Positions 23,148 through 33,105 of a stretch of 64,000 nucleotides of DNA are shown here, in pieces. Positions within the stretch are counted from its first letter, which is position 1. Each line of letters opens with the position of its first letter. The notes under the pieces were generated by a model. The model was given only the letters and a program-made list of their open reading frames with translations. It was not told the DNA's origin and did not search any database. The translations under genes and the position numbers were made by a program. The stretch is from a phage, in assembly GCA_017822615.1 (NCBI GenBank), contig GCA_017822615.1_4530.1. One strand, 5' to 3'.

Positions 23148-23648
23148 ATGGGTGTAGCAACAATAGCTATCGGAAGAAGCGGTATAGATGAGTGCTATCA
23201 AACGGGACTCGTAAAACCTAACGAATTTCGTCAAATTTGTGTAAACCATATTGAAAAAGAGATTGCTCTTACTTTAGAGAATATGACCCTCCGAGATAAA
23301 CTGGAAATGTTTAAATGTTGGTGTCTAGGAGAAGATTGGCTTTTAAACCATTTTCAAGAACTTTCTGATAGTAAAGAAAGCTTGTTTGATTGTATAATAG
23401 GAATAGCTGGCTCCGATCCTAGCCTTCTGCACATAACAGAAGAAGAGGCGAAGTTACTGTTCTTAAGTAATTTGTTTAATAAGAAAGCACTGCTTGTTCG
23501 TGATTGTAGTGATCTTCTTAATAACCCGCTCGCAACGTCTGATCAAATTTTTGTTGACAAAGAGACACTACGTGCGATAGAATACATCTGCAAATATGTG
23601 AATGGCGGGAAAGCGGTTCTTAAAACATTAACAGAGGAGGAAGAATAG
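23148..23648 (+). CDS. hypothetical protein
   Basis: ORF track; RBS aggagg. Confidence 0.55.
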   Translation: MGVATIAIGRSGIDECYQTGLVKPNEFRQICVNHIEKEIALTLENMTLRDKLEMFKCWCLGEDWLLNHFQELSDSKESLFDCIIGIAGSDPSLLHITEEEAKLLFLSNLFNKKALLVRDCSDLLNNPLATSDQIFVDKETLRAIEYICKYVNGGKAVLKTLTEEEE

Positions 23649-24340
23649 TGACGACAATTATTGCAACCAAAAATAAGATTTTGAGTGACGGTAAGGTAAC
23701 TTTTGGTGGACGTGTAGATTCTATTAATTTCAAAAAGGTCCGAAAAATTGGAGATTACCTTGTAGGTGGTGCTGGTCGTCTGACCTCCGTGCTTTCTTTC
23801 TTTCAATGGTTTGAACAAAATCTACAGTGCGAAGCAGCACGTGATGCTGTCCCTGGTTTGATGATTCACTCTGATCCAGACAAAGAAGATGAAGAGTTTA
23901 TTGCACTTGTTGTTCATCCAGACGGACGTATTTTCCTGCATGAAGGTAACAACCCAACACGTGCATATCCGATTGATGAAGAATATTATGCAGTAGGAAG
24001 TGGGTCAGATTTTGCTTTAGCTGCTCTTGACGCAGGGGCAACACCAGAACAAGCTATGGAAGTAGCTAAAAAGCGAGATGCTTTTTCTGGTGGTGAAACA
24101 TTTGTTGAAGAACAAGATGAGATTATTGAATTAACAGACGATGATTTAGAAAACTTCTCCAAAGAAGAATTAATCAATCTTTTGAAATTCGGTAATCCCT
24201 ACGGTGAAGAAGAACCTCGTAACGTGGCAGGTAACGAGGCGGATACTGAAGAAAAATCTGTTGCAGAAAACAACTTGACTTCTAAATCTGAAAATATTAA
24301 TCTCGTAAATGTGGCGGATTTCGAAGGAACCGCTATTTAA
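23648..24340 (+). CDS. HslV-like N-terminal-nucleophile peptidase with acidic C-terminal extension
   Basis: MTTIIAT...KKVRKIGDYLVGGAG...AVGSGSDFALAALDAG aligns with E. coli HslV (MTTIVSV...KKVRRL...AGFAGG...AIGSGGPYAQAAA); Thr at position 2. Confidence 0.7.
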   Translation: MTTIIATKNKILSDGKVTFGGRVDSINFKKVRKIGDYLVGGAGRLTSVLSFFQWFEQNLQCEAARDAVPGLMIHSDPDKEDEEFIALVVHPDGRIFLHEGNNPTRAYPIDEEYYAVGSGSDFALAALDAGATPEQAMEVAKKRDAFSGGETFVEEQDEIIELTDDDLENFSKEELINLLKFGNPYGEEEPRNVAGNEADTEEKSVAENNLTSKSENINLVNVADFEGTAI

Positions 24341-24346
24341 CAAACT

Positions 24347-24366
24347 GCCCCTTCGGGGGCATTTCT
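24347..24366 (+). terminator. terminator-like hairpin (UUCG tetraloop)
   Basis: gccccttcgggggc followed by atttctt. Confidence 0.55.
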
Positions 24367-24385: not shown

Positions 24386-24820
24386 ATGTTACAAGTTCCT
24401 GCTAAGTTTGTTGAAGGCGCTATCCACTCTTACCGTCAAACATGTAAGAGGGCAAGAAACTGTTTAGATGGTCTGGTGGCAAAAACCTATACTGTTGAAA
24501 AGAAGAAACGTTGGTTTGGCAAAGATGTTTACGAAGTTAATATTTTTGGTGAACATAAACTAAACCACGATACTCCTGAAAACATGTTAGAAATATTTCT
24601 AAGAGATGACAAAATATCTCCTATGGATTACCAACTTTTAAAATTTTATGATTCTTCTTTGGCTATTGATAAGTTTGTTGAAGATATTCTGTCTAGAAAA
24701 ACAGATAAAAACACTTATCCTCTAGAGGCTGATCAAATAGGATTATTAAACGAGATTTCATCCTTTAAAGAGTTGGATAATATTACAAAAGAGGAGATTT
24801 TAGATGGCATTAGATTATGA
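24386..24820 (+). CDS. hypothetical protein
   Basis: ORF track; RBS aggag. Confidence 0.6.
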   Translation: MLQVPAKFVEGAIHSYRQTCKRARNCLDGLVAKTYTVEKKKRWFGKDVYEVNIFGEHKLNHDTPENMLEIFLRDDKISPMDYQLLKFYDSSLAIDKFVEDILSRKTDKNTYPLEADQIGLLNEISSFKELDNITKEEILDGIRL

Positions 24821-25313
24821 TCGCCCAACAAGCGATTATTATCCGACACCGCAAAAAGCAATCAATAGTTTGTTTAGTGTTATAGATTTCAAAAATCTAA
24901 AGGAAGAAGGTTGGGTTTTTGCAGAACCTTGCAGAGGTGAAGCTGAAGCGATTTATCGCCATTTTCCTGAAGGTTCAGAATATTGCGAACTTGAAGAAGG
25001 TAAAGATTATTTTAGTCACGAATGGGAAAATCGTCCCGACATTATAATCACAAATCCTCCATTTAAGTTAGCAATGGAGTTCTTGGAAAAGAGCTTAAAA
25101 GAGGCGGATGTTTGTATTTATCTTCTTCGGTTGGGCTTCTTGGAGTCAAAGAAACGACGAGAGTTCCATCAAAAGAATCCACCAACAAACCTTATAGTCC
25201 TTTCAGAACGGCCTTCGTTTGTTGCAGGTGGAACAGATAAGACAGCATACGCTTGGTATGTATACGACCCAAAGAATCGTTTGGGCCTCTCTCAACCATT
25301 TTATTTTGTTTAA
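24804..25313 (+). CDS. phage Dam-like DNA N6-adenine methyltransferase (small)
   Basis: IIITNPPF (motif IV NPPF); N-terminal YYPTP and EPC resemble small phage Dam-family proteins. Confidence 0.55.
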   Translation: MALDYDRPTSDYYPTPQKAINSLFSVIDFKNLKEEGWVFAEPCRGEAEAIYRHFPEGSEYCELEEGKDYFSHEWENRPDIIITNPPFKLAMEFLEKSLKEADVCIYLLRLGFLESKKRREFHQKNPPTNLIVLSERPSFVAGGTDKTAYAWYVYDPKNRLGLSQPFYFV

Positions 25314-25325
25314 GGAGTGTGAACT

Positions 25326-25562
25326 ATGGGTAAACTAATTATGACAGTGGCTATTGATTTTGATGAAGTAGATGAAAGCCTCAACCTTTCACTTTCTACT
25401 GACGTAGATGGTGAAATGGATAATATTGAAGCAGCTACTGCTCTTTTCTTCAAAAAAGCCATTGAAGTTTATGCCGAACATGCTGCAAATCAGGCAGTAG
25501 ATTACGGTGGTATCGTGCGAGCTTTAGTTCACTCTACCGAGGGCAATGACTGGGAAGACTAA
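25326..25562 (+). CDS. hypothetical protein
   Basis: ORF track. Confidence 0.55.
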   Translation: MGKLIMTVAIDFDEVDESLNLSLSTDVDGEMDNIEAATALFFKKAIEVYAEHAANQAVDYGGIVRALVHSTEGNDWED

Positions 25563-25834
25563 TGGCTTACAATTATTACTGCATTTATGCACATGAAAAG
25601 AAAAAAGGTGACACTGGGACTAACGTTTATGCGGAGTCCGAATCTCATGCAAAAGAGATTGGTGCTATCCTTTTATCACGCTGGACTGGAAATAATTACA
25701 GTGCAGAAGATATGTTTGCAGAAGTGGATTCTAGAATCCAAGAAGACAACATAACAACTACGGATATACTTATACTCCCTTTTCGGAGGGAGTATTTTAA
25801 GGAGGGATTATGCAGAGCGGAGAAGAACTTTTAG
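25562..25834 (+). CDS. hypothetical protein
   Basis: ORF track. Confidence 0.55.
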   Translation: MAYNYYCIYAHEKKKGDTGTNVYAESESHAKEIGAILLSRWTGNNYSAEDMFAEVDSRIQEDNITTTDILILPFRREYFKEGLCRAEKNF

Positions 25835-26004
25835 AGAAACAATTCTCAACGCGTCAACAAGCTTTAAGTTATATGGTTTTTCTAAGCAATCTTGATGTGA
25901 ATGAGATACTTTTACGGCGCGAAGGTAATTTCTGGAGCGTTAAATATCATGCAACAAGGTCTGTAATCTACCTGGAAGAGGCGGAATTCTCTTTGGTAGA
26001 ATGA
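25810..26004 (+). CDS. hypothetical protein
   Basis: ORF track. Confidence 0.5.
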   Translation: MQSGEELLEKQFSTRQQALSYMVFLSNLDVNEILLRREGNFWSVKYHATRSVIYLEEAEFSLVE

Positions 26005-26018
26005 TCCGAGGAGTAGTT

Positions 26019-26591
26019 ATGCGTTCAACTTTCACTGGCAAAATAAATGCTGGTTTGATTTTTACAGCAGTAAGCATTCTTAGCAAAAAGTTTAAAGTTG
26101 TTAACTTACCTGTGTGTGTCGATTTCGATCATGTTTTTGATCCTTCGAACCCCACTCGTTGCATAGTAAGGAGTAATGTTGAAAACCCAACAGAAAATCT
26201 TTTTTATGTAACAAAACCATCTCAAAGCATACTTAACCAGGTTGAGGCGAAATTGATACCTAACGGTAAATATTACTCCTTTTTACCTTGTAAGTCGGTT
26301 GAAGTAGAGAATAGCAATACTTTCGCTAATAACTTGTCTGTATTCGTTTTCTTTGTTTCACAGGAAGACGAAACAGATGAAATGGTAGCAACAGTGAGAT
26401 CACTTTATGACTCTTTAGGGGTTGTTTATAGTCAACAAGTGTGCGAAAATAATAAAGCCTGTGTAGATTTCATTATCAACGGTATTTGTGTTTGTAGAGT
26501 AGAATCTTTTTGGCTGCACGATACATATGTGACTGTAGCAGAGGTTATATCTGAACCAAGATTTAGTCATGCGGTTTCGTTAATAATTTGA
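26019..26591 (+). CDS. hypothetical protein
   Basis: ATG 26019 after gaggag (track start 26001). Confidence 0.55.
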   Translation: MRSTFTGKINAGLIFTAVSILSKKFKVVNLPVCVDFDHVFDPSNPTRCIVRSNVENPTENLFYVTKPSQSILNQVEAKLIPNGKYYSFLPCKSVEVENSNTFANNLSVFVFFVSQEDETDEMVATVRSLYDSLGVVYSQQVCENNKACVDFIINGICVCRVESFWLHDTYVTVAEVISEPRFSHAVSLII

Positions 26592-26601
26592 GGAGGAAGG
26601 A

Positions 26602-26931
26602 ATGGAAATTACTACAGAACAAGCCCTTATCGACGAGGGTCGTAAAATCTTAGAAAAGTATTTAGGGGAGATTCATAAAACCCCTGGCTATTTGGGTTGG
26701 AGAATTGTTGAAGCTGTAGATTTCCTTCCTCGTAACAGTAAAAACGTCGAAATGCGATCTCTTTTCTTATTAGTAAAGGTGGATGGGGATACGCCTTTTA
26801 AAGATGCCGCAGAACATATTGAAAAAGTTGAAGAGAAAGCTTATGCAGAATTTGCCGATCTTGTTTTAGAACAAGAGATTGAAGGAAAGGTGAATATTTT
26901 TATTTTCTTAGATTTTGAGGAGGATAAGTGA
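26602..26931 (+). CDS. hypothetical protein
   Basis: ORF track; RBS gaggagg. Confidence 0.55.
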   Translation: MEITTEQALIDEGRKILEKYLGEIHKTPGYLGWRIVEAVDFLPRNSKNVEMRSLFLLVKVDGDTPFKDAAEHIEKVEEKAYAEFADLVLEQEIEGKVNIFIFLDFEEDK

Positions 26932-27671
26932 TCATACACAGAGAAATTACTGTTAAAAGCGATCAAGATCTTTTTATAATTGGAGATCTACACGGTTGTT
27001 ATAATTTGTATGAAAAAGGAAAGGCAAAGTTAGGTATCCGAGATACAGATGTGGTTGTATCTCTAGGAGATCTTACTGACCGTGGAAAGCAAAACTTTCG
27101 TTGTGTTTTAGAATTTACTCGTAAACACAATCGCTACGCTATTCGTGGCAATCATGAAGACATGATGATTAAAGGTATGCTGGAAGGAGATCGTAGCTAC
27201 TACGAGTGTTGGTATCAAAATGGAGGATATACGGTCTTTGAAGAATGTGGTGAAGAAGGAGCTACAGCCTTAGCAATGATGACAGAAGATTTACCTGTTG
27301 TTCTCATTGTTAACTACAGAGGCATGAAACTTGCGTTTATTCATGGTGGGTATCCATCTTCTTTGGAATATCTCCCTGTAACAGATATTCCAGAATACAT
27401 TTCGAAGATGACAAAAACACAGGAAAACCGTTTTGCTGAAGCACTTATGTGGGACAGAGATATGGTAGACTGTGCTAAAGAGGGAATGAAACTTCCTGTT
27501 GTGATGGGTGTGGATTATGTGTTTCATGGACACTCTTATGTAAAAACACCTATTATCAATGCGAATCGTGTTTATATGGATACTGGATCTGTGTTCAATA
27601 ATAACTTAACATTTGCTTATTTCGATATGGACGGTGGTCTTCAATTTTATTCAACTCTTGAGGAGGATTAA
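26928..27671 (+). CDS. Ser/Thr protein phosphatase (lambda-PPase-like metallophosphatase)
   Basis: GDLHG, GDLTDRG, GNHE motifs. Confidence 0.8.
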   Translation: MIIHREITVKSDQDLFIIGDLHGCYNLYEKGKAKLGIRDTDVVVSLGDLTDRGKQNFRCVLEFTRKHNRYAIRGNHEDMMIKGMLEGDRSYYECWYQNGGYTVFEECGEEGATALAMMTEDLPVVLIVNYRGMKLAFIHGGYPSSLEYLPVTDIPEYISKMTKTQENRFAEALMWDRDMVDCAKEGMKLPVVMGVDYVFHGHSYVKTPIINANRVYMDTGSVFNNNLTFAYFDMDGGLQFYSTLEED

Positions 27672-27979
27672 TGTATAAGATTACAATTATTCAAAGTGTA
27701 GGTAATATCCGTAAAGAAGTTATCTTAGAAACAGAAGATGTTAATCTTGTTCGTGAGATTGTTCTTAAGGAAGATAACCTGCAAGCTGTAGAATCAGATG
27801 CACCGAATCTTATGGTGGATCAAGAATATTCTGAACTTCGTCGTATTTTTGAAGAGATTCAGAAGAAAGAAACACAACCGACCATAAAACCTTTTGGTCC
27901 TTATGATCCGAGCAATCCTAGCAGTCCTTGGATCATGAGAAATACGGAACCGTATACACCTTTTGAAATTACTTGTTGA
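27671..27979 (+). CDS. hypothetical protein
   Basis: ORF track. Confidence 0.55.
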   Translation: MYKITIIQSVGNIRKEVILETEDVNLVREIVLKEDNLQAVESDAPNLMVDQEYSELRRIFEEIQKKETQPTIKPFGPYDPSNPSSPWIMRNTEPYTPFEITC

Positions 27980-27986
27980 GGTGATT

Positions 27987-28568
27987 ATGGCAGAACTGTT
28001 CTATACGGGAGTTGGAAGTAGAGACATATCCGAAGAAGAGTGGGCTTTGATGGTAGGCATAGGGAAATGGCTTTCAAACCTTGGGTTTAAATTAAGGTCT
28101 GGGAAGGCAGAGGGTAGTGATTCTGCTTTTGAAACAGGTGTCCAAGAGTCTGAAAATCCTACTAACAAGGAGATTTATGTTCCTTGGGAAAATTTCAAAG
28201 GTAATCAGATTCCAGGGGATGTTATTGTTCTTGCAAAACCAGATACAATGAACTATGCTATCTCTGTGCAATGGATCAAAGATGTTCACCCAGCTTATGA
28301 AAAGCTTAAGCAGGGTGCTAGAAAATTGCACCAACGTAATGTGCATCAAGTGTTAGGTAGAGATTTGGAAAATCCTGCTCCATCCTGTTTCTTGTTGGCT
28401 TGTGCTAATACTGATAAACATGGAGATGCAAAAGGTGGAACAGCTACGGCTTGGAAGATAGCTAAAGCCAATAATGTTCCTTGTTTAAACATTCGTGGGA
28501 AAACAAAACAAGAGATTTACGATTTTCTACGACCTTTGGTAATGAGGGCAATAACAAGTGATTCCTAA
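27987..28568 (+). CDS. SLOG-superfamily (DprA/Smf- or LOG-like) Rossmann protein
   Basis: GVGSRDIS...IGKWLSNLGFKLRSGKAEGSDSAFETGV follows the GSR...SG-A-G-D-A pattern of DprA/SLOG domains. Confidence 0.45.
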   Translation: MAELFYTGVGSRDISEEEWALMVGIGKWLSNLGFKLRSGKAEGSDSAFETGVQESENPTNKEIYVPWENFKGNQIPGDVIVLAKPDTMNYAISVQWIKDVHPAYEKLKQGARKLHQRNVHQVLGRDLENPAPSCFLLACANTDKHGDAKGGTATAWKIAKANNVPCLNIRGKTKQEIYDFLRPLVMRAITSDS

Positions 28569-29070
28569 ACGTAAACGTGGTGAACAAAGAACAAACTTGG
28601 CAGAAATCTTAGATTACAACATGGTTAATGATGTGACAAAAGAAATTCTCCCTGTTGTAGAAGATATTCTTCATAGAGGGTTACGATTCTGCTCTGATCG
28701 GGTGCATTTCATGTGGACACATAAAAGTGACTCCGCTTTGAATTTCTATCCTTTGGACTATACTCTGAACAATACGGAGATGAAAGATATCAACAAATAC
28801 TTAATGGGATATAAAGATATAACAGAAACTGTTCTTGGAGAATTGGCAGAAATCTTGGCTAACGATATCCTTAGAAATATTAATAAGGCTCTTGACAGAA
28901 GCCCAGCAGGAGTAGTAGTATCTTTTGCTGTGCCAGATATGGTTAAATATGAGTCTACAATACCTAATAAAGCTTATGCCTTTCTTCGGAGAGACGTTCG
29001 TGGAAATGTGTTGGAGATGGAGTCAAACTACAAGATTGAGGAGGTTTTATGGCAGAGTTCGGATCAGTAA
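28558..29070 (+). CDS. hypothetical protein
   Basis: ORF track. Confidence 0.55.
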   Translation: MIPKRKRGEQRTNLAEILDYNMVNDVTKEILPVVEDILHRGLRFCSDRVHFMWTHKSDSALNFYPLDYTLNNTEMKDINKYLMGYKDITETVLGELAEILANDILRNINKALDRSPAGVVVSFAVPDMVKYESTIPNKAYAFLRRDVRGNVLEMESNYKIEEVLWQSSDQ

Positions 29071-29339
29071 CAAGTTTTGAAAGTAACTTCGTTACCGCTT
29101 GGGAAGCTTGGGATGAAATGGGTGTTGGGGAACTTTATTTTTACAATGTAACACTACGTCCAGAGTATGCTTACCTGGTACCAGAAGGAACAGTTCAAAT
29201 TGGCATGTATTTGTCTTCTCAAGACGGTGTTGTTCAATTTGAGTTTTATTCTAACACAACGGACAACGAATTTACATACCGCGCATTTCATGTCAACATG
29301 TCTTTAGGAGAGGAGAAATTTTATGACGACCAAGTTTAA
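29049..29339 (+). CDS. hypothetical protein
   Basis: ORF track. Confidence 0.5.
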   Translation: MAEFGSVTSFESNFVTAWEAWDEMGVGELYFYNVTLRPEYAYLVPEGTVQIGMYLSSQDGVVQFEFYSNTTDNEFTYRAFHVNMSLGEEKFYDDQV

Positions 29340-29520
29340 AACAGTAGAAGAAGCCGTAAAAGCAGCTTATGAGGCTTTAGCGGAAGCAGAGCAGTTAGCA
29401 GATGAGACTGGTAAAGGTTTCCGTTTCTCCCCTGAGTATGGGATGGGTGGTTATTATGATCCAGAAGACGAAAATGAGAACACTGGAACAAATTGGCATC
29501 CATCTTCTTTAAGTTGTTAA
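29323..29520 (+). CDS. small acidic protein, W-x-SSS-C C-terminal family member 1
   Basis: C-terminus ...TNWHPSSLSC. Confidence 0.5.
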   Translation: MTTKFKTVEEAVKAAYEALAEAEQLADETGKGFRFSPEYGMGGYYDPEDENENTGTNWHPSSLSC

Positions 29521-29531
29521 TAGGAGGTAAA

Positions 29532-29801
29532 GTGGGAATCGAAGATATCAAAGGTTATAAACCGCATACCGATGACAAAATTGGTAAAGTGAATGCTATT
29601 AAAGATGCTGAAGTTCGATTAGGATTAATCTTTGATGCTCTAATGTCTGAATTGTGGGCTGAACTGGATGATTGTGAAGATTTGGAAGAGTCTACCAATA
29701 TATCCACCCGCCTTGACCAAATTTCAATAGCAAAGACTAAGTTGAAAGAAGCTTCTATGTGGGCCTGTCGTTCCGTTTTCCAACCAGAGGAGAAATACTA
29801 A
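29532..29801 (+). CDS. hypothetical protein
   Basis: GTG 29532 after taggagg (track start 29493). Confidence 0.5.
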   Translation: MGIEDIKGYKPHTDDKIGKVNAIKDAEVRLGLIFDALMSELWAELDDCEDLEESTNISTRLDQISIAKTKLKEASMWACRSVFQPEEKY

Positions 29802-30019
29802 TGAGTGATCGTAATGTTGAAGAATTAACTGAAAAAGCCCAAGCTATTATGGCTTTAGTGGACGAACTTACAAAAGAAGCTGAAGATGCTGGTTTTGGTC
29901 TTAGTTTAGAAAATGACGCAATCTGTTTTGAAGATTGGCAATCCTCTTCTTGTTATGGTGAAGGTGATGATGGTTTCGTCGTTAATTCTCAAGGCGTTTG
30001 GCACAGTAGTAGCTGTTAA
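29801..30019 (+). CDS. small acidic protein, W-x-SSS-C C-terminal family member 2
   Basis: C-terminus ...GVWHSSSC; internal DWQSSSC; ATG 29801 after agaggag. Confidence 0.55.
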   Translation: MSDRNVEELTEKAQAIMALVDELTKEAEDAGFGLSLENDAICFEDWQSSSCYGEGDDGFVVNSQGVWHSSSC

Positions 30020-30028
30020 GGAGAGATT

Positions 30029-30301
30029 GTGGAGTCTGAAGGCGAACTGCTGATAAAAAAGAAAGTTAAAGAGATGGAACAAGCACAAAGAAAGTTTCGT
30101 AAGGAGATTGAAGAACTTTGTGAACAGTTTCAGGAACAAGCTTGGATAGGTGACTACGGTAACGGAGAAACTTATTACCCTACAGGAACGCCAGCCGCAG
30201 ATCACTATATTGATTTCATTTGTGAAGATTATGGTGTAGAGTTGGATGAAAATGGTTTAACCACAAGAGGTGTTTGGATCTCTTCTTCCTCAATGTGTTA
30301 G
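30029..30301 (+). CDS. small acidic protein, W-x-SSS-C C-terminal family member 3
   Basis: C-terminus ...GVWISSSSMC; GTG start after aaggagag. Confidence 0.55.
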   Translation: MESEGELLIKKKVKEMEQAQRKFRKEIEELCEQFQEQAWIGDYGNGETYYPTGTPAADHYIDFICEDYGVELDENGLTTRGVWISSSSMC

Positions 30302-30311
30302 TAAATAATAA

Positions 30312-30331
30312 CCCGCTTCGGCGGGTTTTTT
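30312..30331 (+). terminator. rho-independent terminator (UUCG tetraloop)
   Basis: cccgcttcggcggg followed by T6. Confidence 0.7.
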
Positions 30332-30332
30332 A

Positions 30333-30361
30333 TTGACAGGAATCTGGAAGCTTGATAAACT
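30333..30361 (+). promoter_or_regulatory. sigma70-type promoter
   Basis: TTGACA 30333-30338, 17-nt spacer, TAAACT 30356-30361. Confidence 0.6.
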
Positions 30362-30391
30362 TAACCTATCAACCAATAGAGGAGAAATATT

Positions 30392-31333
30392 ATGGTGTTA
30401 ATTGGTAGCCGTGCATTGCAAATTCATGCTATGGACATGGGAAAAGACTTGTATCGCCCTTGTGTAGATTTAGATTACCTGTGTACAGAACAAGAGTGGG
30501 AAGAATTATCAAAAATGTTCTCTCAAGAGGAGTTTGTTGAACTTGTAGAACGTAAAGGAAACAAAGGCCATGTCAAAATGATAGCTGGTGCACATTTGGA
30601 ATACGATATTGCTTCTCAAGGAGATAGCACAGAAGCTTTGATTAGTTATTGTGAAGATTCTGATGATGTTCGTCGAACTTACGCTGGACATGTTGTTGCT
30701 CCTTTAGATGTGCTCTACCTTCTTAAAATGAGTCATCGTTTTAAAAAGGATAGTCCTCACTTCTTTAAAACTATGAAAGATATTCATTTCATGCGGTCAC
30801 TGGGCGCAAAGATCCCAGAAAATCTTAAGAGTATTTATGAGTTGCGTGAGAAAGAAACATACACTTACTCTCATCCGAACTTAAACGTAAAAAGTAAAGA
30901 CTTTTTTAAAGGTGATGAGGTTCCGTATGTTTATGATCATGATTCTATCCATGAAGCAATCGCGGTAATGGATGCTCCGGCATATAAATCTTATATGAAA
31001 GATGGAAGTGAAGTTATGACCAGCAAAGAAAAGTTTTTTGCTCAACCAAAACATGTGCGCCTGTTAGGTGTTTATGAAGAAGCGTGTGTTTTGGCTTTGG
31101 AACGTTCACAAATTCCTTTCGGTGGAGAGATCGGAGGTCCAACCCCTAAGCAAAGTTTTATAATGGCTTTATCTAAAGTCTGCACATCCATCACTAGTGG
31201 TTGGTTTAGGGAATATGCTTGGGAAAACTTTTATGTTGTTATTAAGCTATATGAAAACATGGGCGAAAACGACTATGTTGAACGTTTTAAAGCTAATCAA
31301 CATGTAGTAAAGCCTTTTGAAGGAGGTTATTAA
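30392..31333 (+). CDS. hypothetical protein, possible Pol-beta-type nucleotidyltransferase fold
   Basis: N-terminal LIGSRALQ...VDLDYL loosely fits the GS...DxD nucleotidyltransferase signature (spacing atypical). Confidence 0.4.
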   Translation: MVLIGSRALQIHAMDMGKDLYRPCVDLDYLCTEQEWEELSKMFSQEEFVELVERKGNKGHVKMIAGAHLEYDIASQGDSTEALISYCEDSDDVRRTYAGHVVAPLDVLYLLKMSHRFKKDSPHFFKTMKDIHFMRSLGAKIPENLKSIYELREKETYTYSHPNLNVKSKDFFKGDEVPYVYDHDSIHEAIAVMDAPAYKSYMKDGSEVMTSKEKFFAQPKHVRLLGVYEEACVLALERSQIPFGGEIGGPTPKQSFIMALSKVCTSITSGWFREYAWENFYVVIKLYENMGENDYVERFKANQHVVKPFEGGY

Positions 31334-31334
31334 T

Positions 31335-31730
31335 ATGTGTGGATATCTTTCAGAAAGTTATTTCAAAGTGACGCATGAGGATTTAGAAAAAGCACGATTG
31401 AAACTGACAGCTATTATTGAATACTCTAATACTGTTGATCACAGATTAAAGACTACTAAAGTATCTGTTCCTTGTTGGTTAGGTTTACGGCATAAAATAA
31501 TGTCTCAACATGACCATGTTGTTCGAGAGATGCATGGTTGGTGTTGGTTTCACGATGTGGCTCTGCATTTTGGTTATATTACAGAAGAAGAGCATAGATT
31601 CTGTGAACTAACATATCGTATTCCAACCCTTCACGATTTAGATTTGTGGAAGAAAGCAAACGAGATTTTTCTTACAGAAAGTGATTGGCGTAAAGTTATG
31701 GCTTGTCTTGAATGGAGGGGTAATGAGTAA
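31335..31730 (+). CDS. hypothetical protein
   Basis: ATG 31335 after aggagg (track start 31317). Confidence 0.55.
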   Translation: MCGYLSESYFKVTHEDLEKARLKLTAIIEYSNTVDHRLKTTKVSVPCWLGLRHKIMSQHDHVVREMHGWCWFHDVALHFGYITEEEHRFCELTYRIPTLHDLDLWKKANEIFLTESDWRKVMACLEWRGNE

Positions 31731-32406
31731 AACAGTTTTGTCTATGTTTGACGGATCTGGGATCATGGTGTTACGTTATGCCGAAGCAGGTCACAAGTGT
31801 TTTTGTGTAAACGCTGATGAAGGGGATCACGGTAAATACGAGGTTAGGATGGAGCACCCAAACATAACCTATGTGAATGCCTGGATAGATTCTACATTCA
31901 ACCCTGAAGATCATGGGATACCTAAACCCGATATTATTTTTGGATTTCCACCTTGCACTATGTTAGCAGGTAGTGGTAGCAAACACGAACGCAGCACAGA
32001 GGAATTGGATGAAGCTTTAGCTAATATTCGTGTAGTGGAAGCTTTGGGTAACAAATATAATGTTCCTTGGATGATTGAGAACCCAGTAGGTAAACTTTCA
32101 ACCTTATGGCGTAAACCCGATTTTTACTTTGATCCTTATGAGTATGGTGGGTATTTGTTTGAAGAGGAAGGAAGCTTTCATCCTAAAATGCCTACCCGTG
32201 ATGGGTATACAAAGAAAACTTGTATTTGGCACGGCAATGGTTTTGTTCAACCAGTGAAGAAACCAGTAGATCATATAGGCTGCTTCTGGGGTTGGAAAAG
32301 CTTAGGTGGAGCTAGTGCAAAAACAAAACAACTTAGATCACTAACCGCACGTGGTTTTGCTCGTGCAGTGTTTTTGTCTAACAATCTTCTAGATAAGGAG
32401 AAATAA
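31723..32406 (+). CDS. small C5-cytosine methyltransferase-like protein (227 aa)
   Basis: Motif I LSMFDGSG, motif IV GFPPCT (Pro-Cys), motif VI ENPVG; no obvious target-recognition domain. Confidence 0.5.
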   Translation: MSKTVLSMFDGSGIMVLRYAEAGHKCFCVNADEGDHGKYEVRMEHPNITYVNAWIDSTFNPEDHGIPKPDIIFGFPPCTMLAGSGSKHERSTEELDEALANIRVVEALGNKYNVPWMIENPVGKLSTLWRKPDFYFDPYEYGGYLFEEEGSFHPKMPTRDGYTKKTCIWHGNGFVQPVKKPVDHIGCFWGWKSLGGASAKTKQLRSLTARGFARAVFLSNNLLDKEK

Positions 32407-33059
32407 TGTCAAATTCAAAACCAGTGGTTGCTTATCAAGTAGATCGTAATGATGGTGAAGGAAGTGTTGTTATTTTCAGTACACACGGTCTTGAGGCTCG
32501 TCGGAAAGGTGCATATCGTTTAGAATGTGAGTTTGAAGACTGCACAAGCCACCGTGTCAAACAATTCGATCAATATGCTGATAAAGGCTTCGTCCCTATC
32601 AAAGCGTTACTGGAAGATGGTTGGTGGGTATATTCTGCTTTTGATTACTCAAAACTGGAGGAGTCAGCTTCGTGCGCCTCCGAGATCGAATATGATGATT
32701 ACTATGACACTCTCTACCTTCCAGAATGGCTTGTCTTTTCCCCTGATGAGAGAAGCGTCTGGAAAACTTGGGAAGAAATGGAGAGACATGCGTATAGCAT
32801 CAATGAAGCCTTAGATCGTAAAGCTTGGTTTATTGAGGCAGTAAAGGCGGCATACCCTCAATTTTCATTCTGTGATTTCACTGGTGGCCCAGGGTACATT
32901 ACACATACAGCCTCTTTTGAGTTCCCTGGCTCACGTTATAAAGGTAATGTTTATTGGGATTGGGATGAAAATAAACAACCTTCGGCTCAAGACTTCCGTT
33001 GCTATGTTTGTCAAGGTGATCAAGAAGCCCTTGACAAATACCTTCAAAGTCTGGTATAG
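32406..33059 (+). CDS. hypothetical protein
   Basis: ORF track. Confidence 0.6.
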   Translation: MSNSKPVVAYQVDRNDGEGSVVIFSTHGLEARRKGAYRLECEFEDCTSHRVKQFDQYADKGFVPIKALLEDGWWVYSAFDYSKLEESASCASEIEYDDYYDTLYLPEWLVFSPDERSVWKTWEEMERHAYSINEALDRKAWFIEAVKAAYPQFSFCDFTGGPGYITHTASFEFPGSRYKGNVYWDWDENKQPSAQDFRCYVCQGDQEALDKYLQSLV

Positions 33060-33076
33060 TGCCGATATCTGAACAA

Positions 33077-33105
33077 AGCCTCCTGTTTCAGGGGGCTTTT
33101 CTTTT
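33077..33105 (+). terminator. rho-independent terminator
   Basis: Hairpin agcctcc...gggggct followed by tttcttttat. Confidence 0.6.

What the first reader, a model, noticed from the sequence alone, without database searches (positions are those of the whole stretch)
24804..32406. Two minimal DNA methyltransferase-like genes (Dam-type and C5-type)
A 169-aa protein has the NPPF motif and N-terminal features of small phage Dam-type enzymes. A 227-aa protein has C5-methyltransferase motifs I, IV (Pro-Cys) and VI (ENP) but is too short to carry a normal target-recognition domain. Either could be an anti-restriction methylase; the second could instead act on a nucleotide or RNA substrate.
Basis: partly seen in the sequence, partly recalled or inferred. 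Interest (0 to 1): 0.45.

Follow-up and report, generated by a model that had tools for sequence, protein, structure and literature searches.

The report
Two small phage DNA methyltransferase genes
The window comes from a phAPEC8-type E. coli phage, and the two flagged genes are real, already-annotated small DNA methyltransferases: one belongs to a phage cytosine-methylase family shown by experiment in a relative to put 5-methylcytosine on DNA, and the other is an untested adenine-methylase-like enzyme.

Summary
Both ORFs exist exactly as described: ORF-A 24804-25313 (169 aa) and ORF-B 31723-32406 (227 aa). The window is 99% identical to phAPEC8-like phages (Phapecoctavirus). In those records both genes are already annotated as DNA methyltransferase, Dcm or N6-adenine methyltransferase.

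ORF-A is a complete catalytic core of a gamma-class amino-methyltransferase (TaqI, MmeI, type I M subunit, METTL5-like) with no target-recognition domain. It is not Dam-class. It belongs to a large family with no Pfam model and no conserved neighbouring gene. Its target is unknown. Phages carrying it remain highly sensitive to m6A-type restriction systems, so it is not a non-specific adenine methylase.

Verdict: ordinary and already annotated. The open points are both sequence specificities and whether ORF-A acts on DNA at all.

The parts
24804..25313 (+). ORF-A, 169 aa: a gamma-class amino (N6-adenine-type) methyltransferase core without a target-recognition domain. It corresponds to phAPEC8 gp177.
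   Evidence: (phrog_799, E 3e-59)
24790..24796 (+). Shine-Dalgarno-like AGAGGAG, 7 nt upstream of the ORF-A ATG. The ORF-A start overlaps the end of the upstream ORF (24386-24820) by 17 nt.
24834..24851 (+). ORF-A motif X, DYYPTP (residues 11-16). The family pattern is D-x-Y-x-T-P.
24924..24938 (+). ORF-A motif I, EPCRG (residues 41-45), the SAM-binding loop. It has the M.TaqI-like E-P-x-C form.
   Evidence: the comparison with the M.TaqI motif is from my own knowledge
25053..25064 (+). ORF-A motif IV, NPPF (residues 84-87), the catalytic amino-methyltransferase tetrapeptide. Among the 172 family sequences held, 152 have NPPF and 20 have NPPY.
31723..32406 (+). ORF-B, 227 aa: a minimal C5-cytosine DNA methyltransferase of the phage 'mini-Dcm' family (phrog_757). 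It corresponds to phAPEC8 gp194.
   Evidence: (E 2e-84)
31714..31720 (+). Shine-Dalgarno-like GGAGGGG just upstream of the ORF-B ATG. The ORF-B start overlaps the end of the upstream ORF (ends 31730), and its stop overlaps the next ORF's ATG at 32406.
31747..31761 (+). ORF-B motif I, FDGSG (residues 9-13), SAM binding. D10, G11, S12 and G13 are invariant in alignment A1.
31945..31959 (+). ORF-B motif IV, FPPCT (residues 75-79). It holds the catalytic Cys78, equivalent to C82 of K42 Dcm. The family pattern is F-P-x-C-T.
32077..32091 (+). ORF-B motif VI, ENPVG (residues 119-123). Glu119 is equivalent to E128 of K42 Dcm.
32206..32220 (+). ORF-B YTKKT (residues 162-166). K164 and K165 are equivalent to K175 and K176 of K42 Dcm, which were mutated in the published inactive quadruple mutant.
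32335..32370 (+). ORF-B motif IX-like segment, RSLTARGFARAV (residues 205-216), close to the C-terminus.
   Evidence: its assignment as motif IX is my inference from the canonical R-x-L-T-x-R-E-x-A-R pattern
24346..24361 (+). Terminator-like hairpin that precedes the transcription unit containing ORF-A (a consensus match only).
30310..30327 (+). Terminator-like hairpin between the ORF-A unit and the ORF-B unit. phAPEC8 annotates a terminator at the corresponding place. A promoter-like site follows at 30333-30361.
33075..33099 (+). Terminator-like hairpin that closes the four-gene unit 30392-33059, which contains ORF-B.

Best explanation
Both genes encode stand-alone (orphan) SAM-dependent DNA methyltransferases. 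They lie in two adjacent rightward transcription units in a region of DNA-metabolism and unknown-function genes of a phAPEC8-like myovirus. ORF-B is a minimal C5-cytosine DNA methyltransferase. Cys78 attacks C6 of a flipped-out cytosine, Glu119 (in ENPVG) protonates N3, and the methyl group comes from SAM bound at FDGSG. A compact, almost invariant stretch of about 70 residues between motifs VI and IX takes the place of a normal target-recognition domain. The target is probably CCWGG, mimicking host Dcm, but this specificity is assumed and has not been measured. ORF-A is a bare gamma-class amino-methyltransferase core (DYYPTP, EPCRG, an acidic motif II, DYF, NPPF). It most likely makes N6-methyladenine at a defined but unknown short DNA motif. 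The likely benefit of both enzymes is full methylation of fast-replicating phage DNA. That would protect it from restriction enzymes whose sites overlap the methylated motifs. A likely cost is that the mini-Dcm activity can be sensed by retron Ec86 (Eco1). What is shown: homology, fold, conservation of motifs and catalytic residues, and synteny. What comes from the literature on a 50%-identical homologue: 5mC deposition on DNA and triggering of the retron. What is inferred: the sequence specificities, DNA as the substrate of ORF-A, and the anti-restriction role.
Against: Neither protein reaches a curated Pfam or NCBIfam threshold. Profile searches against PDB sequences are weak or empty. ORF-B: motif IV deviates from the canonical form (F-P-x-C-T, not P-C-Q), motif VI is ENPV rather than ENV, and I could not identify motifs VIII and X. 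The CCWGG specificity of the K42 homologue was assumed by analogy with host Dcm and from msDNA motif mutants. It was not mapped, and the work used a dcm+ host. ORF-A: there is no experimental relative. Its two best structural matches are RNA methyltransferases. Its pI is 5.2. Only 6 of 80 viral loci show another recognisable MTase within 6 kb, although that test had low sensitivity. [quoted passage not shown] The same study saw no simple link between methyltransferase genes and restriction resistance in Drexlerviridae.
Confidence: 0.7

Rival explanations
1. ORF-A is not a DNA enzyme. It methylates an exocyclic amino group in RNA, as METTL5/PH1948 (18S rRNA m6A), Erm/KsgA or RsmC/RsmD do, or in a protein glutamine, as HemK does. 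It would thereby modify the host translation machinery during infection.
Against: DNA enzymes score equally well: MmeI 13.0, M.TaqI 12.9, type I M 12.0, M.BseCI and CamA 11.8-11.9. Motif I (E-P-x-C-x-G) and motif X (Y-x-T-P) resemble the gamma-class DNA MTase forms; this comparison is from my own knowledge of M.TaqI, EcoKI M and Eco57I. Weak Pfam hits are mostly to DNA MTase families. Some homologues are translationally coupled to, or clustered with, bona fide DNA MTases in phage replication modules. METTL5-type enzymes need a Trm112 partner, and no conserved partner gene exists here.
Confidence: 0.15
2. ORF-A is a sequence-non-specific DNA adenine methyltransferase like Hia5, Hin1523 or M.EcoGII. 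Lacking a target-recognition domain, it would blanket the phage genome with m6A.
For: It has no target-recognition domain. Phage or prophage adenine MTases with almost no sequence specificity are known (PMC3299994).
Against: Hia5-type enzymes are alpha-class and Dam-related, with DPPY near residue 194 and a divergent target-recognition region. That is a different family and motif order. Phages with ORF-A orthologues (EmilieFrey/Bas61 at 85% identity; rV5-like at about 48%) are exceptionally sensitive to EcoRI, EcoRV, EcoKI, EcoCFT_I, EcoP1_I and EcoCFT_II. At least EcoRI, EcoRV, EcoKI and EcoP1 are blocked by their cognate N6-adenine methylation (my own knowledge), so blanket m6A should protect against them. 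The 173-aa HP1 Dam is reported to be a Dam (GATC) methyltransferase (cited in PMC7556043), so small size alone does not imply loss of specificity.
Confidence: 0.05
3. ORF-B acts on something other than DNA. Candidates are free nucleotides (dCMP/dCTP) or RNA (as Dnmt2 acts on tRNA), because it is too short for a target-recognition domain.
Against: The 50%-identical K42/KarlJaspers homologue raises 5mC on msDNA in vivo and needs the conserved Cys, Glu and Lys-Lys residues. Its best structural matches are DNA enzymes: DNMT3B, a prophage C5-MTase, M.HaeIII and M.HhaI. A canonical DNA C5-MTase replaces it at the same locus in the sister genus. Known phage enzymes that modify dCMP at C5 belong to the thymidylate-synthase family and are not SAM-dependent MTases (my own knowledge).
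Confidence: 0.04
4. Both enzymes are active DNA methyltransferases, but their selected role is not protection from restriction. Alternatives include timing of replication or packaging, control of phage gene expression, evasion of mismatch or very-short-patch repair, or protection from nucleases that use Dam or Dcm sites.
For: Phages carrying these genes remain highly restriction-sensitive in the BASEL panel, and no link between MTase genes and restriction resistance was seen in Drexlerviridae. The ORF-B family is extremely conserved across unrelated phages: mean column identity is 58%, and identity is at least 60% among the best 120 hits from many phage types. That suggests a single fixed target rather than an arms race with diverse restriction enzymes.
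Against: None of the six restriction systems tested in BASEL recognises CCWGG or GATC, so the panel could not have detected protection at those motifs. The window strongly avoids many restriction palindromes (CCGG 0.37, GGCC 0.40, GTAC 0.37 of expectation; CCSGG 0 against 9.3 expected) but not CCWGG or GATC. That pattern is what methyl-protection of those two motifs would allow.
Confidence: 0.2

Closest known systems
Phage 'mini-Dcm' of Drexlerviridae: KarlJaspers bas06_0055 and phage K42 Dcm, 236 aa, the trigger of retron Ec86/Eco1 (bioRxiv 10.1101/2023.08.16.553469)
   Same: ORF-B aligns over its full length at 50% identity, E 1e-71. It has the same short architecture and the same motifs (FDGSG, FPPCT, ENPVG, KKT, RSLTxRGFARAV). 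The four residues mutated in the published inactive enzyme are conserved. Both proteins find DNMT3-type enzymes as their best structural match.
   Different: The host phage is of a different family (a myovirus of Stephanstirmvirinae, not a T1-like siphovirus). ORF-B is 9 residues shorter, with small indels. Nothing has been measured on ORF-B itself. Even for K42 Dcm the CCWGG specificity was assumed rather than mapped.
Canonical bacterial and phage C5-cytosine DNA methyltransferases (Pfam PF00145: M.HhaI, M.HaeIII, E. coli Dcm/M.EcoRII; EmilieFrey bas61_0190)
   Same: ORF-B shares the Rossmann-type catalytic fold, motif I, the catalytic Cys in motif IV, the Glu of motif VI and a motif IX-like segment. 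It occupies the same genomic slot as a canonical enzyme in the sister genus.
   Different: ORF-B is 227 aa, against about 320-480 aa for the canonical enzymes. It has no separate target-recognition domain: about 85 residues separate ENPVG from motif IX, against about 150 in M.HhaI (the M.HhaI figure is from my own knowledge). Motif IV is F-P-x-C-T with a variable residue before the Cys. Motif VI is ENPV. I could not recognise motifs VIII and X. It does not reach the PF00145 gathering score.
Gamma-class N6-adenine DNA methyltransferases (M.TaqI, MmeI, type I HsdM, M.BseCI, CamA)
   Different: ORF-A is only the catalytic core (169 aa). It has no C-terminal recognition domain and no HsdS-like partner. 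It is below every Pfam threshold. Neither activity nor specificity has been measured.
Small phage 'Dam' family PF05869 (HP1 orf13, 173 aa; T1-type Dam such as KarlJaspers bas06_0042)
   Same: The size and overall layout are similar: an N-terminal D-x-(W/Y)-x-T-P, then NPP(Y/F)S, and no target-recognition domain. hhalign of the ORF-A family against HP1 orf13 aligns 143 columns with E 1e-4.
   Different: The relationship is only remote: probability 58% for HP1 orf13, and 20% over 36 columns for the KarlJaspers Dam. PF05869 hits of family members are far below the 28.1-bit threshold (best E 0.0046, 11 of 35 members). The motif I region differs (EPCRG against DLDTC). Both families can occur in the same phage contig (L008).
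METTL5 / PH1948 (COG2263) rRNA m6A methyltransferases
   Different: Sequence identity is 17-19%. Those enzymes work with a Trm112 partner (METTL5-TRMT112 in the 6h2u entry title), and no conserved partner gene is found here. ORF-A sits in phage replication or early modules, sometimes beside DNA MTases.

Membership tests
Phage mini-Dcm family (phrog_757; K42/KarlJaspers Dcm): ORF-B | Full-length sequence homology to the characterised member | tested here: met
   BLASTP gives 50% identity, E 1e-71, covering residues 5-220 of 227. phrog_757 matches at E 1.8e-84 over residues 1-225.
Phage mini-Dcm family (phrog_757; K42/KarlJaspers Dcm): ORF-B | Conservation of the residues needed for activity in the published enzyme (C82, E128, K175, K176) | tested here: met
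   They map to C78, E119, K164 and K165. C78, E119 and K164 are invariant and K165 nearly invariant in the 31-sequence family alignment.
Phage mini-Dcm family (phrog_757; K42/KarlJaspers Dcm): ORF-B | 5mC deposition on DNA; activation of retron Ec86 | not testable with these tools
   This is known only for the K42 homologue, from LC-MS and genetics.
C5-cytosine DNA methyltransferase superfamily (Dnmt fold, Pfam PF00145): ORF-B | C5-MTase catalytic-domain fold | tested here: met
C5-cytosine DNA methyltransferase superfamily (Dnmt fold, Pfam PF00145): ORF-B | Motif I (FxGxG), motif IV catalytic Cys (canonical P-C-Q) and motif VI (ENV) | tested here: met
   FDGSG, FPPCT and ENPVG are present, but in variant forms. 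The family pattern is F-P-x-C-T, with Pro-Cys in only 15 of 116 scored homologues, and motif VI is ENPVG in 117 of 120.
C5-cytosine DNA methyltransferase superfamily (Dnmt fold, Pfam PF00145): ORF-B | Motifs VIII (QxRxR) and X (GNxV) | tested here: inconclusive
   No matching pattern is seen in alignment A1. The protein ends about 11 residues after the motif IX-like RSLTxRGFARAV.
C5-cytosine DNA methyltransferase superfamily (Dnmt fold, Pfam PF00145): ORF-B | Pfam PF00145 gathering score (22 bits) | tested here: not met
   The score is 11.6 bits, E 0.18. Only 2 of 31 family members match at E<0.1. By the curated model ORF-B is a divergent relative, not a member.
C5-cytosine DNA methyltransferase superfamily (Dnmt fold, Pfam PF00145): ORF-B | Separate variable target-recognition domain between motifs VIII and IX | tested here: not met
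   Only about 85 residues lie between ENPVG and RSLT, and they are almost invariant across the family.
E. coli Dcm / M.EcoRII orthologue: ORF-B | Orthology to host Dcm (about 470 aa, PF00145) and CCWGG specificity | tested here: not met
   ORF-B is 227 aa and has no PF00145-level similarity. CCWGG specificity cannot be tested here. 'Dcm' in the annotations is a functional nickname.
Gamma-class amino (N6-adenine) methyltransferases: ORF-A | Linear motif order X - I - II - III - IV, with (N/D)PP(Y/F) | tested here: met
   DYYPTP (11-16), EPCRG (41-45), E62, D68-Y69 and NPPF (84-87) occur in that order. Of the 172 family sequences held, 152 have NPPF and 20 have NPPY.
Gamma-class amino (N6-adenine) methyltransferases: ORF-A | Fold match to gamma-class enzymes | tested here: met
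Gamma-class amino (N6-adenine) methyltransferases: ORF-A | C-terminal target-recognition domain or a separate specificity subunit | tested here: not met
   The protein ends with the catalytic core at residue 169. No neighbouring gene family spans more than 3 of 35 homologue groups in 80 viral loci.
Gamma-class amino (N6-adenine) methyltransferases: ORF-A | Curated Pfam or NCBIfam model threshold (N6_Mtase, Eco57I, EcoRI_methylase, MTS) | tested here: not met
   The best hit is EcoRI_methylase at 14.7 bits, against a 26.4-bit threshold. NCBIfam gives nothing.
Dam, alpha-class (EcoDam, T4 Dam, DpnM; PF02086): ORF-A | Alpha-class order (motif I ... recognition domain ... DPPY) and homology to PF02086 | tested here: not met
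Small phage Dam family PF05869 (HP1, T1 Dam): ORF-A | Match to PF05869 above 28.1 bits, or a confident profile-profile match | tested here: not met
   ORF-A itself has no hit. Eleven of 35 relatives match weakly (best E 0.0046). hhalign probability is 58% against HP1 orf13 and 20% against the KarlJaspers Dam. Those two controls match PF05869 at E 7e-75 and 2e-60.
Hia5-type non-specific adenine methyltransferases: ORF-A | Dam-related alpha-class sequence with DPPY, and blanket m6A that blocks m6A-sensitive restriction enzymes | tested here: not met
   The class and motifs are different. Phages with ORF-A orthologues are highly sensitive to EcoRI, EcoRV, type I and type III systems. This second point is indirect, from the literature.

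The most novel reading that the evidence does not exclude
The ORF-A family is a widespread class of phage amino-methyltransferase. It has at least 4457 members of about 170 aa, no Pfam or NCBIfam model and no studied member that I could find. It may do something no described gamma-class enzyme does. One option is sequence-specific DNA methylation with no recognition domain or specificity subunit. The other is methylation of a host RNA, such as rRNA in the manner of METTL5, to reprogramme translation. In parallel, the mini-Dcm family of ORF-B may recognise its target through a new recognition element of about 70 residues, and its true specificity may not be CCWGG.
Probability: 0.2. Interest if true: 0.5.

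Novelty: already known. Interest (0 to 1): 0.2.

Why it matters
The practical consequences are modest. phAPEC8-like phages are candidates for phage therapy. A phage-encoded mini-Dcm predicts two things: their DNA carries 5mC, which is relevant to restriction barriers and to nanopore or bisulfite analysis, and they may be sensed by hosts that carry retron Ec86/Eco1. The ORF-A family is large and untested, so determining its target would fill an annotation gap for about 1% of sequenced phages. Neither point changes how these enzymes are understood.

Tried and rejected
1. Sequence searches against PDB chains, with single sequences and with profiles, gave only weak or no hits. Fold comparison was needed instead.

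2. Pfam and NCBIfam gave no hit above threshold for either protein. Only PHROGs recognises both.

3. I looked for a conserved partner, such as a specificity subunit, for ORF-A.
- Neighbours in four diverse loci share no homology.
- Clustering of neighbours in 80 IMG/VR loci found no family that spans more than 3 of 35 homologue groups.
- The partner idea is rejected.

4. I tested whether ORF-A homologues sit in 'methyltransferase islands'. Three hand-picked contigs suggested this. In the 80-locus sample only 6 had another MTase detectable with my phmmer seeds. That test has low sensitivity and no control set, so I do not use it as evidence either way.

5. ORF-B has no conserved partner either. 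Its operon neighbours (a DUF7277/DUF7275 protein and two unknown proteins) are absent from the KarlJaspers and Bdellovibrio prophage contexts.

6. I tried site-avoidance statistics as a predictor of specificity. CCWGG and GATC are not avoided, but neither is GCWGC. E. coli hosts methylate both motifs anyway. The result is only weakly consistent with the proposal and not diagnostic.

7. Membership of ORF-A in the HP1/T1 small Dam family is rejected. The similarity is remote only.

8. The afdb50 fold library was unavailable. The BFVD search added nothing decisive.

9. Literature searches found no methylome data for Phapecoctavirus, rV5-like or phi92-like phages. The CB7 paper's ClaI digest does not separate phage methylation from host Dam methylation.

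Full report
WHAT THE WINDOW IS. A 9-kb stretch around the finding is 99.0-99.6% identical over its full length to more than 20 phage genomes of the phAPEC8 group. This group is the genus Phapecoctavirus in the subfamily Stephanstirmvirinae, E. coli myoviruses of about 150 kb. The RefSeq record of phAPEC8 annotates the two flagged genes as gp177 and gp194, both 'DNA methyltransferase'. Other records call them 'putative DNA methyltransferase', 'DNA N-6-adenine methyltransferase' and 'Dcm'. The genes are therefore already in the public annotation, in several records at 100% protein identity.

THE OBSERVATION. It is correct.
- ORF-A is 24804-25313 (+), 169 aa. It has a good ribosome-binding site, and its start overlaps the upstream ORF.
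- ORF-B is 31723-32406 (+), 227 aa. Homologues start at the same Met-Ser-Lys, so the 227-aa reading is right and the 241-aa GTG start is not.
- The quoted motifs are all there: NPPF at residues 84-87 of ORF-A, and FDGSG, FPPCT and ENPVG in ORF-B.
- Terminator-like hairpins at 24346-24361, 30310-30327 and 33075-33099 place the two genes in two adjacent rightward transcription units. These are consensus matches only. phAPEC8 annotates the middle one as a terminator.

ORF-B: HOMOLOGY AND STRUCTURE.
- Curated models barely see it. PF00145 scores 11.6 bits against a threshold of 22, and NCBIfam finds nothing.
- PHROGs places it in phrog_757, 'DNA methyltransferase', at E 2e-84.
- It has 870 detectable homologues, and the 120 listed are 210-267 aa long.
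- tblastn finds relatives in 1488 of 50,697 phage records. These include T1-like Drexlerviridae, Klebsiella siphoviruses, rV5-like and T4-like myoviruses and Vibrio phages.
- The family is unusually conserved, with a mean column identity of 58%.
- An AlphaFold model built from the family alignment is confident (pLDDT 89.8).

ORF-B: THE LINK TO EXPERIMENT. This is the decisive evidence.
- A bioRxiv paper (10.1101/2023.08.16.553469) reports on retron Ec86. Phages that escape it had lost a 711-bp dcm gene of the T1-like phage K42, which is 95% identical to KarlJaspers/Bas06.
- Expressing this Dcm is toxic only when the retron is present.
- Expression raises 5-methylcytosine on the retron's msDNA, as measured by LC-MS. 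A C82A/E128A/K175A/K176A mutant does not.
- I fetched KarlJaspers. Its 711-bp 'Dcm-like C5 cytosine methyltransferase' has Cys82, Glu128, Lys175 and Lys176 at exactly those positions.
- ORF-B aligns to it over its full length at 50% identity, E 1e-71.
- The four residues map to Cys78, Glu119, Lys164 and Lys165 of ORF-B. The first three are invariant and the fourth nearly invariant in the family.
- ORF-B is therefore a member of an experimentally supported family of minimal phage DNA C5-methyltransferases.

ORF-B: EVIDENCE FROM SYNTENY. In the sister genus Justusliebigvirus (phage EmilieFrey/Bas61) the genes flanking ORF-B are orthologous, at 69% and 25% identity. The gene between them is instead a canonical 329-aa PF00145 enzyme (E 1.7e-43). 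It is only 26% identical to ORF-B's N-terminal half. Two kinds of C5-methyltransferase thus replace each other in one genomic slot.

ORF-B: WHAT IS UNUSUAL.
Across the 120 best homologues motif IV reads FPDCT (59), FPSCT (38), FPPCT (15) or FPQCT (4). The conserved pattern is F-P-x-C-T, with a variable residue before the catalytic Cys.
- Motif VI is ENPVG rather than ENV.
- I could not recognise motifs VIII and X.
- The protein ends shortly after a motif IX-like RSLTxRGFARAV segment.
- Only about 85 residues separate motifs VI and IX, and they are nearly invariant. This suggests a compact, fixed recognition element and a single shared target across the family. That reading is my inference.
- The CCWGG specificity implied by the name 'Dcm' has not been measured. 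The retron paper assumed it by analogy with host Dcm and supported it only by mutating the CCTGG in the msDNA, in a dcm+ host.

ORF-A: HOMOLOGY AND STRUCTURE.
- PHROGs places it in phrog_799, 'DNA methyltransferase' (E 3e-59).
- Pfam gives only sub-threshold motif-IV hits.
- The family is large: at least 4457 hits with a profile search. The full-length homologues listed are about 160-230 aa, mostly near 170 aa, and none has a precomputed Pfam domain.
- Relatives occur in 544 phage records.
- The invariant or nearly invariant positions form a complete set of gamma-class amino-methyltransferase motifs, in gamma-class order. These are D-x-Y-x-T-P (motif X), E-P-C-R/K-G (motif I), Glu62 (motif II), Asp68-Tyr69 (motif III) and N-P-P-F/Y (motif IV).
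- The model is confident (pLDDT 89.8).
- No Dam or DpnM structure is among the top 60.

ORF-A IS NOT DAM-TYPE. 'Dam-type' is the wrong class.
- The ORF-A family aligns to HP1 orf13 over 143 columns, but with only 58% hhalign probability. Against the KarlJaspers Dam the probability is 20%.
- Those two controls match PF05869 at E 7e-75 and 2e-60.
- The resemblance is in architecture and does not amount to family membership.

ORF-A: DNA OR RNA. Fold comparison cannot decide this.
- For DNA: the motif I and motif X forms resemble gamma-class DNA enzymes (from my own knowledge).
- For DNA: the weak Pfam hits of relatives are mostly to DNA adenine methylase families.
- For DNA: some homologues are translationally coupled to, or clustered with, bona fide DNA methyltransferases in phage replication modules.
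- Against over-reading that last point: in 80 viral loci only 6 showed another methyltransferase within 6 kb. My seed-based test had low sensitivity.
- No neighbouring gene family is conserved across the family. ORF-A therefore has no specificity subunit and no Trm112-like partner.
- One functional limit comes from the BASEL study. Vequintavirinae and phi92-like relatives, including EmilieFrey with an 85%-identical ORF-A, are 'exceptionally susceptible' to EcoRI, EcoRV and to two type I and two type III systems. From my own knowledge, at least EcoRI, EcoRV, EcoKI and EcoP1 are blocked by N6-adenine methylation. ORF-A is therefore not a Hia5-like non-specific adenine methylase acting on phage DNA.
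- My estimate is about 60% for a site-specific DNA m6A methylase, about 15% for an RNA enzyme, and the rest for other or inactive.

WEAK SUPPORTING OBSERVATION. The 64-kb window strongly avoids many restriction palindromes.
- CCGG, GGCC and GTAC stand at 0.37-0.40 of Markov expectation.
- GGATCC, CTGCAG, GCATGC and CAGCTG are absent.
- CCSGG is 0 against 9.3 expected, so all 96 CCNGG sites are CCWGG.
- GATC (312 observed, 304 expected) and CCWGG (96 observed, 80 expected) are not avoided.
- KarlJaspers shows the same CCWGG/CCSGG pattern.
- This fits methyl-protection of the Dam and Dcm motifs by host or phage enzymes. It is not diagnostic.

VERDICT. Both genes are real and correctly recognised as minimal methyltransferases. 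Both are already annotated. ORF-B belongs to a family with direct experimental support as a DNA 5mC methyltransferase and retron Ec86 trigger. ORF-A is an uncharacterised gamma-class core without a recognition domain, and the label 'Dam-type' does not fit it. The novelty rating is 'already known' and the interest is low. Three questions remain open: the actual recognition sequences, how such short proteins read DNA, and whether ORF-A acts on DNA at all.

Noticed in passing
window 1-64000: CCSGG is completely absent (0 observed, 9.3 expected from a Markov model, 35 from base composition), so all 96 CCNGG sites are CCWGG. CCGG, GGCC and GTAC are at 0.37-0.40 and CTAG at 0.48 of expectation. GGATCC, CTGCAG, GCATGC and CAGCTG are absent. 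GATC and CCWGG are not depleted. KarlJaspers (L004) shows the same CCWGG/CCSGG contrast.
   Followed up: partly
L011:14718-15707 (phage EmilieFrey, MZ501063): At the slot syntenic with ORF-B, the sister genus carries a canonical 329-aa PF00145 C5-methyltransferase instead of the 227-aa minimal enzyme. The flanking genes are orthologous.
   Followed up: yes
window 29323-29520, 29801-30019, 30029-30301 (+): Three tandem small ORFs (65, 72 and 90 aa) are paralogous, at 33-37% identity. All end in a conserved W-x-S-S-(x)-C C-terminus (WHPSSLSC, WHSSSC, WISSSSMC). Their function is unknown.
   Followed up: no
window 30392-31333 (+): The first gene of the four-gene unit containing ORF-B encodes a 313-aa protein with DUF7277 and DUF7275 domains (E 1e-13 and 7.5e-76). 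Its function is unknown. It is not found next to ORF-B homologues in other phage types.
   Followed up: partly
homologues of ORF-A: P0171, P0225; P0153, P0161, P0166: Two ORF-A homologues carry a Cys-rich insertion of about 30 residues, possibly a zinc ribbon, right after the R-P-x-F motif. Three others carry C-terminal low-complexity tails of about 55 residues. These may be add-on nucleic-acid-binding elements.
   Followed up: no
L003 (Bdellovibrio sp. 22V chromosome, prophage-like region around an ORF-B homologue): GATC is entirely absent from 12.7 kb (0 observed, 47 expected), while other tetramers are at normal levels.
   Followed up: no
L008:1251-6538 (metagenomic phage contig, ERZ761591): Within about 5 kb of one phage replication module lie four methyltransferase-like genes: two PF02086-type genes (one of them only a faint match), one PF05869 Dam and one ORF-A homologue.
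   Followed up: partly
window 23648-24340, 26019-26591, 26928-27671, 27987-28568 (+): The genes between and around the two methyltransferases include an HslV-like peptidase, a small 'histidyl-tRNA synthetase'-like protein, a NinI-like Ser/Thr phosphatase and a DprA-like protein. A Sir2-like gene lies downstream in phAPEC8.
   Followed up: no
window 1-64000: GC skew is positive up to about 34 kb, negative from about 34 to 52 kb, and near zero after that. This suggests switches of the coding strand. No tRNA gene lies in this window, although phAPEC8-like genomes are reported to carry 10-13.
   Followed up: no
public records MG065650 (Campylobacter phage B15), OP562383 (Acinetobacter phage vB_AbaM_ABPW7): Records labelled as Campylobacter or Acinetobacter phages are 99.3-99.4% identical to this E. 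coli phage over 9 kb. The host labels look doubtful.
   Followed up: no
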